Positions 1 through 63,000 of a stretch of DNA of 64,000 nt are shown here, in pieces. The DNA lies in assembly GCF_006345805.1 (NCBI RefSeq), contig NC_043003.1, positions 57,412,001 through 57,476,000 on the forward strand, given 5' to 3'. Made by a program: the position numbers. Source of the stretch: Octopus sinensis. Lineage: Eukaryota. Position 1 is the first letter of the stretch. The number at the start of each line of letters is the position of its first letter.

Positions 1-3000
1 AACGTAGGCGTGTCAACCACATAGTTCCGAGTTCCGTCTTACTTTTGTGAACACAGGGTAAGTATCTTGTACTATAAGACTAGGGCCGACCAAAGCTTTG
101 TGAGGGCATTTGTTAAATGGAAAATGAAAACCCGTCATATATATATGAGACAGGCAGGGCTGTGTAATAAGAGGCTTGCTTCCCAACTACATGGTTCCTG
201 GTTCAATCCCACCGTGTAACACCTCAACCAAGTGTCTTCTACTATAACCTCGGGTCGACCAAAGCTTTGTGAGTGGATTTGGTTCACGGAAACTGAAAGA
301 AGCTCCACATATATATATATTCCGACCACCATTGCCGCTTGAAGTCAGGTGTTGATGTGTTTATGTCACCGTAACTTGGTGGTTCAACAAAAGATACCGA
401 TAAAATAAGTACTACACTTAAAAATAAGTCGTGGGGTCGATTTGTTCAGCTAAAAGCCTTCAAGGCGGTGCTCCAGTATGGCTGCAGTAAATGAATAAAT
501 GAACACACACACACATATTTATATATATATATATACTACCACACACACACACACACACACACACACACACACACACAACACAATATATATATATTATATA
601 TATATATATAATATATATATATATATATATATATATATATATTATATATATATATATATATATATAATATACCGATCCCAGGAATTATTCTTTGCAAACC
701 TAATACTTATTCTATGGTGGGGTACAAAACCACACCACACACCCACACATATATATACGACGGGCTCCTTCCAGTTTCCGTCTATCAAATCTACTCACAA
801 GGCTTTGATCGGTCCAAGTCTATAGTAGAAGACACTTGCCCAAGTTGCAATGCACTGAGACTGTACCCTGAACCATGTGGTTGGGAAGCAAGCTTCTTAC
901 CCCACCGCAACATACACACACTCACACACACATGTATATATTATGTATGTATATAATATATATTATATATATATATATATATATATATATATATATATAT
1001 ATATAAATGGCTATTTCTTCAACTGCAATAAAAGTCTCCAGACAATGCATACTCAGAAAATAACTCACATAGGTATAAGGGAAAAATAATGAAAGATTAC
1101 ATCCATATACGATACCCGAGGACAGTCTGTTCTGGATTTGTGGTTAAAACGCCACTTTTCCTTCATCAGCTCAGAGATTTCTTCTGATTTAGATTTGAAA
1201 ATACTAAGAATCTAACATACCCGTCCGATATCTGTAACATCGGACAAACCATGCCAGACACCCAGTACTAGCGAATCCAAAAATACGAATGAGATCTATT
1301 ATTCTCCCTGTCCACCCACGTGAGTCATAGAGCATTACATTTCTACAGAGGTAAAAACTGCAGTTCAAATTCTTGGAGATTAAAGCATTATATTGTCATC
1401 AAAAAAAGGGGTAGATTACTTAATTGTTAATAAATTCGACCAAGCAGTATTCGGTATGTAAAGACCATTTACGGTATATTTGAAGTATTAATTATAAAAA
1501 TATGGTAAAGTAAAAAAATTCACTTTACTACACACCGAACTTTTCAGAAATAGCAGCCAAAAATTTGGCTATTTCTTCAACTGCAAATAAAAGTCTCCAG
1601 ACAATGCATTACTCAGAAAAAACTCACATAGGTATAAGGGAAAAATAATGAAAGATCACATCCATATACGATACCCGAGGACAGTCTGTTTCTGGATTTG
1701 TGGGTAAAACGCCACTTTTCCTTCATCAGCTCAGAGATTTCTTCTGATTTAGATTTGAAAATACTAAGAATCTAACATACCCGTCCGATATCTGTAACAT
1801 CGGACAAACCATGCCAGACACCAGTACTAGCGAATCCAAAAATACGAATGAGATCTATTATTCTCCCTGTCCACCCACATGAGTCATAGAGCATACATTC
1901 TACAGAGGTAAAAACTGCAGTTCAAATTCTTGGAGATTAAAGCATTATATTGTCATCAAAAAAAAAGGGGTAGAATTAATTAATTTTAATAAATTCGACC
2001 AAGCAGTATTCGGTATGTAAAGACCAGTTACGGTATATTTGTTGAAGAAATAGCCAAATTTTTGGCTGCTATTTCTGAAAAGTTCGGTGTGTGGTAAAGT
2101 GAATTTTTTTACTTTACCATATTTTTATAAATTAATACTTCAAATTAATACTTTGCCTTTCATCCTTTCGAGGTCGATAAATTAAGTACCAGTTATGCAC
2201 TGGGGTCGATGTAATCGACTTAATCCTTTGTCTGTCCTTGTTTGTCCCCTCTGTTTAGCCCCTTGTGGGCAATAAAGAAATAAGAAACTTTAGCATGCCG
2301 GGCGAAATGCTTAGTGATATTTCGTCTAACATACGTTCTGGGTTCAAATTCTGCCGAGGTCGACTTTGCCTTTCATCCTTACGGGGTCGATAAATTATTT
2401 ACCAGTTGCGTACTAGGGAAGATCTAATCGACTGGCCTCCTCCCTAAAAATTTCGGGCTTTGTGCTTAGAGTAGAAAAAAATATCTTCCGAAGTGTTTAG
2501 AAATACTGGGCCTATCGTTAGAGTTGCTCTTCTCAATTCCTACGTCCCAGACAACAAACTCTAAGAAGCAGAGGTTCAGCAACTTTATTAGGAACTAGCT
2601 GCAACTGCAAAAGTGCGGCCATATTGCTTTTTATCGTTGGTGAGTGGAGATGATATTTGTGGTGGTGGTGGTGGGCGGGCGGCGGTGGTGGTGTTTGTCG
2701 TCGTGGCATTGTGGTGGTGAGTTTTGTTAGTGTTGATATTTTTACAGGTGATTGAAAGGCTGAATGTCAGTTAAAGAATATGCTAGAAAATAAATCGTCT
2801 GCCATTATGCAAAGATACATATATCAATCCATAAATCATTAAGCAAAGCATTTCAGCCATTTTAAACTTAACACCCACACATACATACACACACATACAT
2901 ACCTACATACATACACACATAAATACATACACACATACATTTACACACACATACATACCCACATACACACCCTATTACATATACACACAAATACATACAT

Positions 3001-60000: not shown

Positions 60001-63000
60001 TCACGCATATGTACGTATATGTGTATGTGTGAGTGTTATGAAATTACGTACATATACGTAATTTCATAAACACTCATATTATATACATATATATGTGTGT
60101 GTGTGTGTGTGTGTGTATGTGTGTGTATGCATATAAATATACATATATCTATATATGTATGTATATATATATATATATATATATATATATATGCATATAT
60201 ATATTTACATATATATATGTATGTATATATATGTATATATACATATATATATGTATATATACATATATATATATTTATATATATATATGTTCATATATTA
60301 TAATATAATATACATGTATATATTATAACATCTATCTTCTCTCTCTCTCTCTCTATATATATATATATATCTATATATATATATAATATATATTATATAT
60401 ATATATACACACACAGATACAAAACAGTGTGAGATAGACAAATGGAGAGAGACGTTACAATGTATTGAATTGAATCCGATTAAAATAAAAGCACTTTCAC
60501 TCACCTCATACACATAGTCAAAAATATGCTCTCACACAGAAACAATATCAGACAGACAGAGAAAAAAAATGCAGGGAGGAGAACGATAGAAACATTATAA
60601 TGTATGTTAAATAAGCCAGCGTCGAAGCAGCGACGGCAAAACACCTGTGCCAAAATGTCTGCGCCAAGACACCTGCGCCAAAAACCCCTCATTCTAAATA
60701 AGCTTCAAATTACTCTACCCTTGGCATTGACCTCATTGTCAGTTTCTCTCCAGTAGTTTCAAATCTCAAACCAATTCAAGTTGAAGCCATTCTGCCACTT
60801 CATATCAAATTGCAACGTTGAACTACGATTTGAGCAACTATAACTAGTTACATCTTATTCTACGGTCATAATTCTTTTTATATACATCACTCAATATTGA
60901 AAATATATCATCTCGTGGTGTAGATTTGTCAATTAGTGCTAGAAGAAAATTACATAATGTACAACAGAACATATGAACAAATCAAATTATATACAAGAAT
61001 TTATAGCCATGATTGAATTAATTACCTAATAAGATTTTCATCGTAAAGTGATATTAAACATTGAGATAGGCAATCAATTGATACGTGTTTCGGATCACGT
61101 CTTTGAAACTTGCTTTCATTTTTTTTTTTTTTTTTGGTTCAAATAATTGGATATAGTATCTAATATTACAATTTATATCAAATCTTGTACTTGCTCTAAA
61201 CTGAGGTTTTGAAAGATGGACACTGTGAAACCAGTGCTAACATCTAGAAATATATATTTGGTAGTTGTTGCAGAACCGTTGATAGTTTCGATACAAGAGG
61301 CGTTGACATATATCGCGCCAGTAAAAAAGAGGTATGTGTTAATACAAACACAATAGCAGGAAACTAGAAATAACGAAGAAGTGAGTCATCATCCTCGAAA
61401 GAATATGAATATATTGACACATATATATACGTATTTTTTTATATATCACACACATCCAAAACACACACTAACACACGAATTCATAAAATCATAATTACTG
61501 AACATTCTTAAGTGGTTTCTAGCCCTTCTGGCCTTTTATATTTTTACCGTTTTGTCAATGACAATTTCTCATTCTCAATCACTTTGTGGCTGTCCCATTT
61601 TGCTGATGAAGGCCTTACGTCCAAAACGTTATGGCACGTTCTTTTTCCATTAAGCGTTAAGCTACTACCGCATTTGTTAAATTAGTCCTCCTCTGTTGTC
61701 CCTGTTGTCGTACTTTGTATTCATGAGCATGTATGTGCGTGTGTTGGGGAGGGGGAGGGGCGTGTGTGTATTTATTCCATGAAGTTGCTAAATCCCTTTT
61801 CCGACCGACATCCAAAAGTTCTTTTACACTTAGTCTTCGCACATTTAATTTCAACAAATATTTGTTTCATCCTTACAACGGAATTCTCACCAAAATGACC
61901 TTTCCCACCGACAAACATTTCAATGGTACTGAAAGTGTTAGGAAGATACGTCTAATAACTTGTGTTTTACTCATCACTCCAAGAGTTCATTAAGATATTA
62001 ATACACAACTTTTACGTAAATTCACTAAAAATGTCAATGTTTAAAATATCAATGATTAATAATAGTGAGATGAAACGACGTCGAAATGTGCGCTTGCATG
62101 AAACAAAATGGAAACAGCGCTTCACTTCAAGCATGGTCATTCATTCTCTACTTTGTATTTAAAATAAATAAACATTAATGAGGAAAAATCGCTTTTTATT
62201 TTAGGACACACCACACACACACACACACCTATATATATATATATATATAATATATATATATATATATATATATATATATATATATATATATATATATATA
62301 TATAGAATGCTAAATTATATATCCATACAAAACTGAACTGTAATCCAATTCATATTTTGGCCGTAGGATGTAGATTGAACAATAAATAATTCATCGTAAT
62401 ATTGCTCCAAAAAGAAACCATGATACTTACGTGGGAAGGAATTGACATGTCATGTGAATGTTACAAAGTCAAACATACATAGATACGTGCATACACACAT
62501 ACATACAAACATACGGATATACATACATGCATACATACGTAGTTATACAGACATACACAAACACACACACACAGTCCGCCAATTTAAAAATCTGATGGAT
62601 ATGAACATAGTATTCGTTTAAAAACCATCAGGTTTCCCAGTCGGACGCACTGTTTATATATATATATATATATATATATATATATATATATATATATATA
62701 TATATATATATATATATATATAATATATATATTATATATATATATATATATATACATATACATACATATATATGTATATGTATACATGTGCGTTATATAT
62801 ATATATGTATGTTTGTGGTATATATATATATATATATATATACACACAAACATACATATATATATATATAAACGCACATGTAAGGAGGCATACGTATGTG
62901 TTGTGTTGTGTGTGGTGTGAGGGTTCCACATGTGCGGGGTTATGTCCAAATGTGTCTCTGAATATGTGTAAAAACTTTATAAGGTCCTTGGGGGCAAGGA

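What the first reader, a model, noticed from the sequence alone, without database searches (positions are those of the whole stretch)
1006..61725. Window-wide set of hammerhead-ribozyme mobile elements associated with (TA)n microsatellites
Seen: type I HHR folds at 1674-1735(-), 9018-9088(+) and 25715-25776(+) with intact cores. Variants with one or two changes lie at 1115-1175, 9360-9394, 20045-20126 and 38800-38875, and eroded or half copies at ~4952, 6360, 25563-25610, 29941, 33996, 35273 and 61603. Most sit in 200-700-bp ORF-less elements ending in (TA)n. Helix sequences differ completely between families while pairing is kept. Established: Penelope-like elements carry minimal type I HHRs in their pLTRs, and animal retrozymes are non-autonomous HHR repeats. 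Inference: several diverged non-autonomous HHR families at roughly one motif per 5 kb, which would imply a very large genomic ribozyme load. I cannot tell whether these families are already catalogued.
Basis: partly seen in the sequence, partly recalled or inferred. Interest (0 to 1): 0.9.

Follow-up and report, generated by a model that had tools for sequence, protein, structure and literature searches.

The report
Hammerhead-ribozyme retroelement remnants beside TA microsatellites
This microsatellite-rich, gene-free stretch of an animal genome is dotted with short non-coding mobile-element copies that carry small, dimer-type hammerhead ribozyme motifs like those known from Penelope-like retrotransposons, so it is a real but largely familiar kind of feature.

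Summary
Five sites keep both hammerhead (HHR) core boxes, an open helix I, a closed helix II and a short self-complementary helix III: 1674-1735(-), 9018-9088(+), 20045-20126(-), 25715-25776(+) and 39071-39141(-). Four more sites have one core change. Four are eroded further, including one local duplicate, and two are half copies.

This exceeds chance. Permuted decoy cores scanned in the same sequence give 0.03-0.08 sites against 2-3 real ones.

Two loci (1008-2145 and 25347-25990) are homologous at 64% identity. They keep the core while 5 of 17 stem pairs change on both sides. A covariance model built from those two loci alone recovers 9011-9099 and 39071-39141.

A second family of about 215 bp has five copies, each decayed differently.

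No Rfam hammerhead model matches any site, and no reverse transcriptase or GIY-YIG ORF lies in the window.

The copies end next to (TA)n more often than random positions do: 6 of 8 against a 26.5% base rate.

Best reading: non-autonomous or truncated Penelope-like / retrozyme-type elements inserted into AT microsatellites. This kind is already described, so I score novelty as a new member of a known kind. Genome-wide load and catalysis remain untested.

The parts
1008..2145 (-). Locus A. Two direct ~559-bp ORF-less units, each with an HHR, plus a head-to-head inverted fragment at 2041-2145. The 3' end abuts (TA)n at 964-1005.
   Evidence: Self-BLAST: 1008-1482 matches 1566-2041 at 96.7%, and 1478-1581 is inverted against 2041-2145 at 98%. 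nhmmer hits. Sequence read.
1674..1735 (-). HHR A2. Both core boxes intact. Helix I is 6 bp, two of them G-U. Helix II is bipartite, with A.A at 10.1/11.1. Helix III is a 9-nt odd palindrome. Cleavage triplet GUC.
   Evidence: Model R1 scores 100 bits, by construction. Fails the strict descriptor.
1115..1175 (-). HHR A1, a tandem copy of A2 with one A deleted from the GAAA box.
1469..1596 (-). Conserved double hairpin about 110 nt downstream of the HHR in locus A. It is also present at 2033-2122(+) and in locus C at 25912-25973(+) and 25362-25425(-). The 3' end of copy A1 falls inside the first hairpin.
   Evidence: Alignment A2. Weak R2 hits at E 0.01-0.46. The proposed role is inference from PMC11167929.
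9018..9088 (+). Intact-core HHR. Helix I is only 3 bp. Helix II is 4 bp, a 3x3 internal loop and 5 bp. Helix III is a 10-nt perfect palindrome. Triplet GUC. It lies in an ORF-less stretch, about 8930-9277, between microsatellites.
   Evidence: Strict descriptor. Found by model R1, built without it, at E=0.0019 and 21.7 bits. Sequence.
9292..9502 (+). Family B copy of about 215 bp, flanked by (TA)n on both sides (9278-9291 and 9503-9553). It carries a min-HHR at 9360-9394 with U4>C, a bulged A after A9, a 4-bp helix II closed by G-C, and no loop 3.
4876..5089 (+). Family B copy with an eroded HHR (three core changes). (TA)n follows at 5090-5121.
6283..6500 (+). Duplicate of the 4876-5089 copy, inside a ~1.4-kb local tandem duplication. 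Not an independent insertion.
   Evidence: Self-BLAST: 4256-5051 matches 5664-6462 at 98.3%. nhmmer.
20045..20126 (-). Intact-core HHR candidate. It has G10.1-C11.1, a 5-bp helix II with a long insert, a 5-bp helix I, and a helix III palindrome broken by G.G. A competing 8-bp pairing makes one long hairpin the minimum-free-energy (MFE) fold. (TA)n lies about 207 nt downstream at 19789-19838.
   Evidence: (one-mismatch palindrome descriptor). R2 gives only E=0.61.
25347..25990 (+). Locus C. Two ~240-bp arms lie head-to-head (25371-25610 minus sense, 25729-25966 plus sense, 97.5% identical). It is homologous to locus A. (TA)n lies at 25347-25370 and at 26055-26078.
25715..25776 (+). HHR C, the best motif in the window. 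Box 1 reads CUGACGA. Helix I is 6 bp. Helix II is 4 bp, a 3x3 loop and 4 bp. Helix III is a 10-nt palindrome with two wobble pairs. Triplet GUA.
25554..25629 (-). Half copy in the inverted arm of locus C. It has the 3' part of the HHR but lacks box 1.
29866..30075 (+). Family B copy with an eroded HHR (A6>C and G16.2>U). A (CA)n tract follows it.
33996..34007 (+). Possible 3' half of an HHR: GAAA, an 8-nt palindrome and C. There is no box 1 upstream.
   Evidence: No support from homology.
38800..38875 (-). HHR with C3>U, A.A at 10.1/11.1, a 6-nt palindromic helix III and a helix I of 6 pairs in 7. It lies about 260 nt downstream of the 39071-39141 motif on the same strand.
   Evidence: R2 E=1.8. 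Dimer fold.
39071..39141 (-). Helix I is 6 bp, helix III is a 10-nt perfect palindrome, and helix II is bipartite. Triplet AUU.
   Evidence: Model R1, built from loci A and C only, gives E=0.0055 and 20.1 bits. Sequence. Dimer fold.
61540..61730 (+). Distant family-B-like copy. Box 1 is intact (61603-61609) but G12>A. A (TG)n-like tract follows it.
   Evidence: nhmmer with the B profile did not reach E<=10 for it.

Best explanation
The window is non-coding, microsatellite-dense animal DNA. It holds about eleven separate insertions of short ORF-less retroelement copies that carry type I hammerhead ribozymes of the minimal, dimer-dependent kind described for Penelope-like elements (PLEs).

At least two families are present.
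- An 'A/C' type has a bipartite helix II and a ~10-nt self-complementary helix III. It comprises loci 1008-2145 and 25347-25990, with 9018-9088 and 39071-39141 sharing the same ribozyme architecture.
- A ~215-bp 'B' type carries a very small HHR with no loop 3. Its copies are at 9292-9502, 4876-5089 (with a duplicate), 29866-30075 and 61540-61730.

Proposed mechanism, all inferred.
1. A tandem or read-through transcript is cut by two ribozyme copies that pair through their palindromic helix III.
2. A PLE reverse transcriptase / GIY-YIG endonuclease supplied in trans nicks AT-rich DNA such as (TA)n.
3. It starts cDNA synthesis in a hairpin roughly 100-120 nt downstream of the cleavage site.
4. 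This leaves 5'-truncated, tandem or head-to-head copies whose 3' ends abut the microsatellite.
5. Most copies then decay neutrally.

Shown here: the motifs, their excess over chance, homology with compensatory changes, the tandem and inverted layouts, the lack of ORFs, and the (TA)n adjacency. Inferred: self-cleavage, dimer action, mobilisation by a PLE enzyme, and the role of the downstream hairpins.
For: Excess over chance.
- 3 real sites against 0.1 in 30 shuffles.
- Permuted decoy cores in the real sequence give a mean of 0.075, with 1 of 400 decoys at >=2 sites.
- Dimer-type descriptors give 2 real against 0.053 and 2 against 0.027, with 1 of 150 decoys reaching 2 in each case.

Homology with structure kept.
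- Loci A and C align over ~300 nt at 63.6% identity, 185 of 291 aligned positions.
- Both core boxes are kept and 96.1% of 51 stem cells pair.
- 5 of 17 pairs changed on both sides. Slid controls pair at 22-43%.

Leave-out test.
- A covariance model built from A2, A1 and C alone finds 9011-9099(+) at E=0.0019 and 39071-39141(-) at E=0.0055, with filters off.
- On the six-sequence alignment 93.8% of cells pair and 14 of 17 pairs have compensatory changes. That alignment is fitted to the model.

PLE hallmarks.
- The helix III segment from A15.1 to U16.1 is self-complementary at every site, over 4-10 nt. It is imperfect at two: 20045-20126 has a G.G mismatch and A2/A1 have a 9-nt odd palindrome with an unpaired centre. 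Homodimer folds of C, 9018, 38800 and 39071 give a 6-12-bp intermolecular helix III.
- This matches the features listed in PMC4209133.

Family B decay.
- There are four independent copies plus one duplicate, each with different core changes.
- This is as expected for decaying copies of a once-intact HHR element.

Layouts.
- Tandem at locus A, head-to-head inverted at loci A and C.
- These are the 'complex tandem/inverted insertions' of PLEs (PMC8557442 abstract).

Microsatellite adjacency.
- 6 of 8 independent elements have a (TA)>=6 array within 250 nt downstream, against 26.5% of random positions. My binomial estimate is about 0.006.
- PLE insertion bias for (TA)n is published, as is an AT-rich nick site.

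Geometry of 3' ends.
- Family B copies and copy A1 end about 105-120 nt after the predicted cleavage site.
- In the anole PLE, reverse transcription starts in a stem-loop about 85-92 nt past the HHR cut.
Against: - No Rfam hammerhead family matches: none at gathering score, and none at E<=10 in local scans of all five intact loci.
- The 10.1/11.1 pair is G-C only in 20045-20126 and family B. Elsewhere it is A-U, A.A or G.A, whereas PMC4209133 names G10.1-C11.1 as highly conserved.
- Monomer MFE folds are no more stable than shuffles (z from -0.8 to +0.7). The exception is 20041-20130, whose MFE is a competing long hairpin.
- Helix I of 9018-9088 is only 3 bp.
- No RT or GIY-YIG domain was found in any of 391 stop-free ORFs scanned. 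These were 100 of the 246 ORFs of >=75 aa and 291 of the 482 ORFs of 45-74 aa; the rest were dropped as low-complexity. The link to PLEs is therefore by resemblance only.
- The covariation rests on very few independent sequences, and A1 and A2 are near-identical.
- No copy from elsewhere in this genome, and no Dfam or Repbase entry, could be compared.
- Published min-HHRs cleave poorly even as dimers. HHR mutants did not impair PLE insertion in vitro.
Confidence: 0.75

Rival explanations
1. The elements are non-LTR retrozymes proper. These are tandem HHR repeats whose transcripts self-cleave into monomers that a tRNA ligase circularises into circRNA. On this reading they are not truncated or solo PLE pieces.
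For: Locus A has two HHRs in direct orientation about 559 nt apart with no ORF. Retrozymes are ORF-less, AT-rich, type I HHR repeats reported in crustaceans and other invertebrates (PMC7229834 passages). A 2026 preprint abstract derives them from PLE pseudo-LTRs (pLTRs), so the two readings overlap.
Against: Only 1 of about 11 insertions is tandem, and its second ribozyme has a broken GAAA box. Published retrozyme units are 150-450 bp, occur in multiple tandem copies and carry canonical HHRs. Here helix III is minimal and palindromic and helix II is long, which is the PLE type. Most copies are solitary and decayed.
Confidence: 0.12
2. The motifs are chance or pseudo-hammerheads. Low-information core boxes happen to fall next to hairpins and inverted repeats that are common in this repeat-rich DNA.
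For: No Rfam HHR hit. MFE z-scores are not significant. With one core mismatch allowed, decoys already give 1.6 sites against 6 real. 19249-19400 and 35273 look like such chance matches. The window was picked by eye.
Against: For intact cores, decoy cores in the same sequence almost never reach the real counts: 1 of 400 and 1 of 150. Loci A and C are homologous and keep the core while the stems covary. A model built from A and C recovers two further sites. Every site has a self-complementary helix III, which the CM's three-pair helix III did not require across the loop; my dimer-type descriptor did test for it.
Confidence: 0.07
3. The elements are foldback or MITE-type DNA transposons, or plain SINEs, in which the HHR-like sequence is an inert passenger.
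For: Locus C has 240-bp inverted arms at 97.5% identity. Family B is a discrete ~215-bp unit with a simple-repeat tract at its 3' end, as in SINEs. A degraded mariner-like transposase lies nearby.
Against: The arms of locus C are head-to-head copies of a unit that is direct-tandem in locus A. They are not termini of one element. No target-site duplication could be read in the microsatellites. Conservation of the core with compensatory stem changes is not expected for an inert passenger.
Confidence: 0.05

Closest known systems
Minimal hammerhead ribozymes (min-HHRs) in the pseudo-LTRs of Penelope-like elements (Cervera & de la Pena 2014, PMC4209133; Lunse et al., RNA Biol, seen only as a reference-list entry)
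   Same: Type I topology. Very short or absent helix III with self-complementary 15.2-16.2/loop 3, implying dimers. Short helix I (3-6 bp) and enlarged helix II. An extra nucleotide after A9 in family B. Many diverged families per genome, mostly solitary copies, some close pairs on opposite strands. Reported in shrimps and other arthropods.
   Different: No RT/GIY-YIG ORF flanks any copy in the window. Helix II of the A/C type is bipartite (4 bp, a 3x3 A-rich loop, 4-5 bp). The 10.1/11.1 position is A-U, A.A or G.A rather than the conserved G-C. The density in this window is high.
Non-LTR retrozymes of animals (Cervera & de la Pena 2020, PMC7229834; Li et al. 2026 preprint, abstract only)
   Same: ORF-less, AT-rich, type I HHR repeats. 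Non-autonomous and proposed to be mobilised by PLEs. Locus A is a tandem pair.
   Different: Published units are 150-450 bp in multi-copy tandem arrays with canonical HHRs. Here only one locus is tandem (~559 bp, two units, one ribozyme broken), and the ribozymes are of the minimal PLE type.
Microsatellite-targeting PLEs (Neptune and Naiad clades; Craig et al. 2021, PMC8557442) and the AT-rich nick site with internal RT start of an anole PLE (Frangieh et al. 2024, PMC11167929)
   Same: Insertion next to or inside (TA)n. Complex tandem and inverted copies. 3' ends roughly 100 nt downstream of the HHR.
   Different: Naiads lack canonical HHRs. No enzyme gene is present here, so the clade cannot be assigned. 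Target preference is inferred from 8 elements in a window where (TA)n occurs every ~730 bp.
SINE-like HHR elements of schistosomes (Sm-alpha / Sj-alpha; from the review PMC6765202, passages)
   Same: Short, non-autonomous, dispersed repeats that each carry one type I HHR.
   Different: Those carry canonical, efficiently cleaving HHRs and a Pol III-type promoter. Neither was shown here.

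Membership tests
Hammerhead ribozyme, type I | Core boxes CUGANGA and GAAA with a non-G residue at position 17 after U16.1 | tested here: met
   Met at 5 sites: 1674-1735(-), 9018-9088(+), 20045-20126(-), 25715-25776(+) and 39071-39141(-). Four further sites have one change.
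Hammerhead ribozyme, type I | Three helices around the core, with helix I open and helices II and III closed | tested here: met
   Descriptor hits. 96.1% of stem cells paired on the A/C alignment against 22-43% for slid partners. Helix III is closed only as a tiny hairpin or as a dimer.
Hammerhead ribozyme, type I | Match to a curated hammerhead covariance model (Rfam) | tested here: not met
   0 hits at gathering score on the whole window. No hammerhead family at E<=10 in local scans of the five intact loci.
Hammerhead ribozyme, type I | Self-cleavage at the predicted phosphodiester | not testable with these tools
   Needs in vitro transcription of monomer and dimer constructs.
PLE-type minimal HHR (PMC4209133) | Palindromic 15.2-16.2 and loop 3, with a minimal helix III | tested here: met
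   Self-complementary segments of 4-10 nt at all sites. It is imperfect at 20045-20126 (G.G mismatch) and in A2/A1 (9-nt odd palindrome with an unpaired centre). Homodimer folds of C, 9018, 38800 and 39071 give an intermolecular helix III of 6-12 bp.
PLE-type minimal HHR (PMC4209133) | Highly conserved G10.1-C11.1 pair | tested here: not met
   G-C only in 20045-20126 and family B. A-U in 25715 and 9018, A.A in 1674 and 38800, G.A in 39071.
PLE-type minimal HHR (PMC4209133) | Unpaired nucleotide between A9 and 10.1 | tested here: inconclusive
   Clear in all family B copies, where an A precedes a G-C-closed helix II. In the A/C type the same A can instead be read as 10.1.
PLE-type minimal HHR (PMC4209133) | Families within a genome that show covariation and compensatory changes | tested here: met
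   5 of 17 pairs between loci A and C. 14 of 17 on six sequences, on an alignment fitted to the model. Few sequences in either case.
Penelope-like element (autonomous) | HHR-bearing pLTRs flanking an ORF with RT and GIY-YIG endonuclease domains | tested here: not met
   Pfam scans found no RVT or GIY-YIG hit in 100 of 246 ORFs of >=75 aa or in 291 of 482 ORFs of 45-74 aa. The ORFs left out were low-complexity microsatellite translations. Heavily degraded ORFs could be missed: the mariner remnant scored only E=0.0019.
Non-LTR retrozyme (PMC7229834) | Multi-copy tandem repeats of 150-450 bp, each with a type I HHR | tested here: not met
   Only locus A is tandem, with two units of ~559 bp. All other copies are solitary.
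Non-LTR retrozyme (PMC7229834) | Expression as linear and circular RNAs of unit length | not testable with these tools
   No transcript data for this genome.

The most novel reading that the evidence does not exclude
The A/C-type motifs may define an undescribed hammerhead architecture: a bipartite helix II with a conserved 3x3 A-rich internal loop, a non-G-C 10.1/11.1 position and a ~10-nt palindromic helix III. It would be carried by non-autonomous PLE derivatives that home to (TA)n. If the density seen here holds genome-wide (about one intact-core motif per 13 kb, one of any state per 5 kb), the load would be several-fold to ten-fold above the counts published for other animals: thousands per genome in PMC4209133 and about 120,000 in axolotl in PMC7229834. 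Such a load would tie these elements to the extreme microsatellite content of the host genome.
Probability: 0.15. Interest if true: 0.6.

Novelty: new member of a known kind. Interest (0 to 1): 0.35.

Why it matters
If the reading is right, the window is a compact example of how ribozyme-bearing, non-autonomous Penelope-type elements colonise AT microsatellites and then decay. It offers several testable ribozyme variants whose 10.1/11.1 position departs from the canonical G-C. It also gives a family-specific covariance model where the Rfam hammerhead models found nothing, so routine annotation would probably miss these elements. The biology itself is already established: hammerheads in PLEs, dimer action, retrozymes and microsatellite targeting. 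The gain is therefore cataloguing and density, not a new principle.

Tried and rejected
- Rfam at gathering score gave nothing. Rfam at E<=10 on the whole window returned 636 rows, and the 150 listed were all microsatellite look-alikes of miRNA families. I treated these as artefacts.
- The repeat finder on the whole window was swamped by microsatellites. I replaced it with a dust-masked self-BLAST.
- 19249-19400(+) passed the loosest strict descriptor, but it is 152 nt long with 3-bp helices and no homologue. I rejected it as chance.
- 35273 has no GAAA partner on either strand. Rejected.
- nhmmer profiles of the A/C and B families found no further convincing copies. The only extras were weak hits at 38236-38431, E 0.026-0.14.
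- Model R2 did not lift 20036-20133 (E=0.61) or 38793-38881 (E=1.8) to significance.
- Monomer MFE folding gave no significant stability. It was not used as evidence either way, apart from the competing hairpin at 20041-20130.
I repeated it with stop-free ORFs.
- The organism could not be identified. No coding exon was found, and the available DNA collections are prokaryotic, phage or plasmid, so I did not search them. The idea that it is a penaeid shrimp rests only on the microsatellite load and on PMC7878876 passages. It is a guess.
- Lunse et al. (PMC5785218) is not held.
- Supplementary figures of PMC4209133 that show shrimp and other arthropod min-HHRs could not be seen. They may already depict related motifs.
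- Dfam and Repbase were not available, so 'already catalogued?' stays open.

Full report
**Setting**

The window has no N, is about 35% G+C and is saturated with microsatellites. Perfect simple repeats cover 11% of it, and there are 88 merged (TA)>=6 arrays, one per ~730 bp.

No real protein domain was found in 391 stop-free ORFs. These were 100 of the 246 ORFs of >=75 aa and 291 of the 482 ORFs of 45-74 aa. The ORFs left out were low-complexity. The one exception is a weak DDE_3 match from a degraded mariner-like transposase. The window is therefore intergenic or intronic animal DNA. I could not identify the organism.

Rfam gives no hammerhead hit. There is none at gathering score. There is none at E<=10 in local scans around the five best sites.

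A descriptor of my own asks for CUGANGA, helix II, GAAA, helix III including A15.1-U16.1, a non-G at position 17 and helix I. It finds 9018-9088(+) and 25715-25776(+), plus a poor 152-nt hit at 19249-19400. The mean in 30 dinucleotide shuffles is 0.1.

Shuffles destroy real hairpins, so I also scanned the real sequence with permuted 'decoy' cores of the same composition:
- Strict descriptor: decoy mean 0.075 sites; 1 of 400 decoys reached 2 and none reached 3.
- Descriptor accepting a self-complementary helix III (the dimer model): 2 real sites against 0.053.
- Same, with one mismatch allowed in the palindrome and longer helices: 2 real sites (25721+ and 20121-) against 0.027. In each of these two tests 1 of 150 decoys reached 2.
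- With one core mismatch and relaxed helices: 6 real against 1.6, with 4 of 150 decoys reaching 6.

Eroded motifs therefore need homology to be believed.

**Site by site**

Five sites keep both boxes: 1674-1735(-), 9018-9088(+), 20045-20126(-), 25715-25776(+) and 39071-39141(-).

One core change:
- 1115-1175(-): an A lost from GAAA.
- 9360-9394(+): U4>C.
- 38800-38875(-): C3>U.
- about 61598-61635(+): G12>A.

More eroded:
- about 4950-4985(+), and its duplicate at about 6358-6393(+).
- about 29940-29975(+).

Half copies:
- 25554-25629(-).
- 33996-34007(+).

Not supported: 35273.

That makes 14 sites and about 11 separate insertions in 64 kb.

**Homology and covariation**

Self-BLAST shows three things:
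- 1008-1482 matches 1566-2041 at 96.7%, with an inverted fragment at 2041-2145.
- 25371-25610 is inverted against 25729-25966 at 97.5%.
- There is a 1.4-kb local duplication, 4256-5051 against 5664-6462.

Read in ribozyme sense, locus A (minus strand) and locus C (plus strand) align over ~300 nt at 63.6% identity. Across the ribozyme both core boxes are identical apart from the free N. All stems are kept: 96.1% of 51 cells pair, and 5 of 17 pairs change on both sides. With slid partners 22-43% pair.

Helix II is bipartite: 4 bp, a 3x3 A-rich internal loop, 4 bp and a loop. Helix III differs in sequence between the two loci but is self-complementary in both.

A covariance model built from A2, A1 and C only (R1) was run over the whole window with filters off. 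It returned the training copies, the half copy at 25554-25629, and two sites it had not seen: 9011-9099(+) at E=0.0019 and 39071-39141(-) at E=0.0055. Both share the bipartite helix II.

On the six-sequence alignment 93.8% of cells pair and 14 of 17 pairs show compensatory changes. That alignment is fitted to the model, A1 and A2 are near-duplicates, and E-values from the short calibration are rough. A second model, R2, did not raise 20036-20133 (E=0.61) or 38793-38881 (E=1.8) to significance.

**Family B**

The sites at 9360, 4952, 6360 and 29941 lie in homologous ~190-215-nt units, with 72% mean column identity and nhmmer E-values from 1e-34 to 1e-49. The unit has a discrete start and is followed directly by (TA)n in two copies and (CA)n in one. 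61540-61730 is a more distant relative.

Its ribozyme is the textbook min-HHR: box 1, a bulged A, a 4-bp helix II closed by G-C, GAAA, a 4-nt palindrome and no loop 3.

Each copy carries different core changes. At every core position at least half of the four independent copies keep the canonical base. This is the pattern of neutral decay from an intact ancestor.

**Folding**

Monomer MFE folds recover helices I and II for A2 and C, but they are not more stable than shuffles. The 20041-20130 RNA prefers a competing long hairpin.

Homodimer folds of C, 9018, 38800 and 39071 form an intermolecular helix III of 6-12 bp with helix II kept. This is consistent with the dimer model but is not a test of it.

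**Context**

Six of 8 independent elements have a (TA)>=6 array within 250 nt downstream of the ribozyme, against 26.5% of random positions. My binomial estimate is about 0.006.

- 9292-9502 has (TA)n on both sides.
- The inverted pair of locus C is bracketed by (TA)n.
- Copy A1 ends inside a conserved hairpin and runs straight into (TA)n.
- Three pairs of motifs lie within 600 nt on the same strand: 1169/1729, 9021/9364 and 39128/38870.

**Comparison with what is known**

- PMC4209133 (parts 1-2 of 4 read) describes minimal type I HHRs in PLE pseudo-LTRs. They have short helix I, enlarged helix II, an extra base after A9, conserved G10.1-C11.1 and a palindromic helix III. They act as dimers with low in vitro activity, form many diverged families, are mostly solitary copies, and occur in shrimps among others.
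- PMC8557442 (passages) reports PLE insertion bias for microsatellites, (TA)n for Naiads and as 'preferred targets' in its figure legend. It also reports complex tandem and inverted insertions.
- PMC11167929 (abstract and passages) shows AT-rich nicking. Reverse transcription starts in a stem-loop 111-118 nt into the ORF, with the HHR cut 26 nt into the ORF. HHR mutants still insert in vitro.
- PMC7229834 (abstract and passages) and a 2026 preprint (abstract) describe non-LTR retrozymes and derive them from PLE pLTRs.
- PMC7878876 (passages) links Penelope elements with long (AT)n in penaeid shrimp and does not mention hammerheads.

The finding therefore fits a known kind. It departs from it in four ways: no enzyme gene nearby, a non-G-C 10.1/11.1 in the A/C type, the bipartite helix II, and the local density.

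**Verdict**

These are real, mostly decayed, non-autonomous or truncated PLE/retrozyme-type elements with dimer-type hammerheads, inserted at AT microsatellites (confidence 0.75). Catalysis, the mobilising enzyme, genome-wide load and prior cataloguing were not testable here.

Noticed in passing
39336-40045 (+): A 354-bp unit repeated twice at 90% identity encodes frameshifted pieces of a mariner-like DDE transposase. Pfam gives only a sub-threshold DDE_3 match, E=0.0019.
   Followed up: partly
4063-5051 and 5472-6462: A local tandem segmental duplication of about 1.4 kb at 98-99% identity. It carries one family B copy and so inflates the motif count.
   Followed up: yes
2150-2442, 7287-7395, 15877-16230, 22155-22566, 27870-28048, 28887-29089, 34361-34488, 46604-46775, 58755-58864: An abundant short interspersed repeat family of ten or more fragments at 78-94% identity, on both strands, with no hammerhead motif. 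Type unknown.
   Followed up: no
137-303, 750-912, 16542-16705, 18245-18393, 26071-26248, 37494-37614, 59281-59357; and 347-494, 16305-16530, 17845-18055, 26302-26499, 37339-37496, 47180-47356: Two further interspersed repeat families at 74-90% identity that tend to lie next to each other. They may be parts of one element.
   Followed up: no
whole window, e.g. 40944-41068, 5250-5320, 54752-54922: Rfam at E<=10 returns hundreds of 'miRNA' matches (mir-297, mir-3149, mir-466, mir-5014), all below gathering score. They are (TA)n/(TG)n microsatellite hairpins, an annotation trap.
   Followed up: yes
1469-1596 (-), 2033-2122 (+), 25912-25973 (+), 25362-25425 (-): Two conserved hairpins about 110-200 nt downstream of the ribozyme in loci A and C. 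The first looks like a degenerate second hammerhead, with box 1 changed at 2-3 positions. It may be the enzyme-binding or RT-start region.
   Followed up: partly
38214-38452: A near-perfect palindrome that matches mir-4524 on both strands at 51-52 bits, below gathering score. It has weak similarity to the A/C downstream hairpin region, nhmmer E 0.026 and 0.14.
   Followed up: no
35783-36007 and 36320-36525: A 56-bp x4 and a 98-bp x2 tandem repeat of complex sequence at 88% identity, unrelated to the hammerhead families.
   Followed up: no
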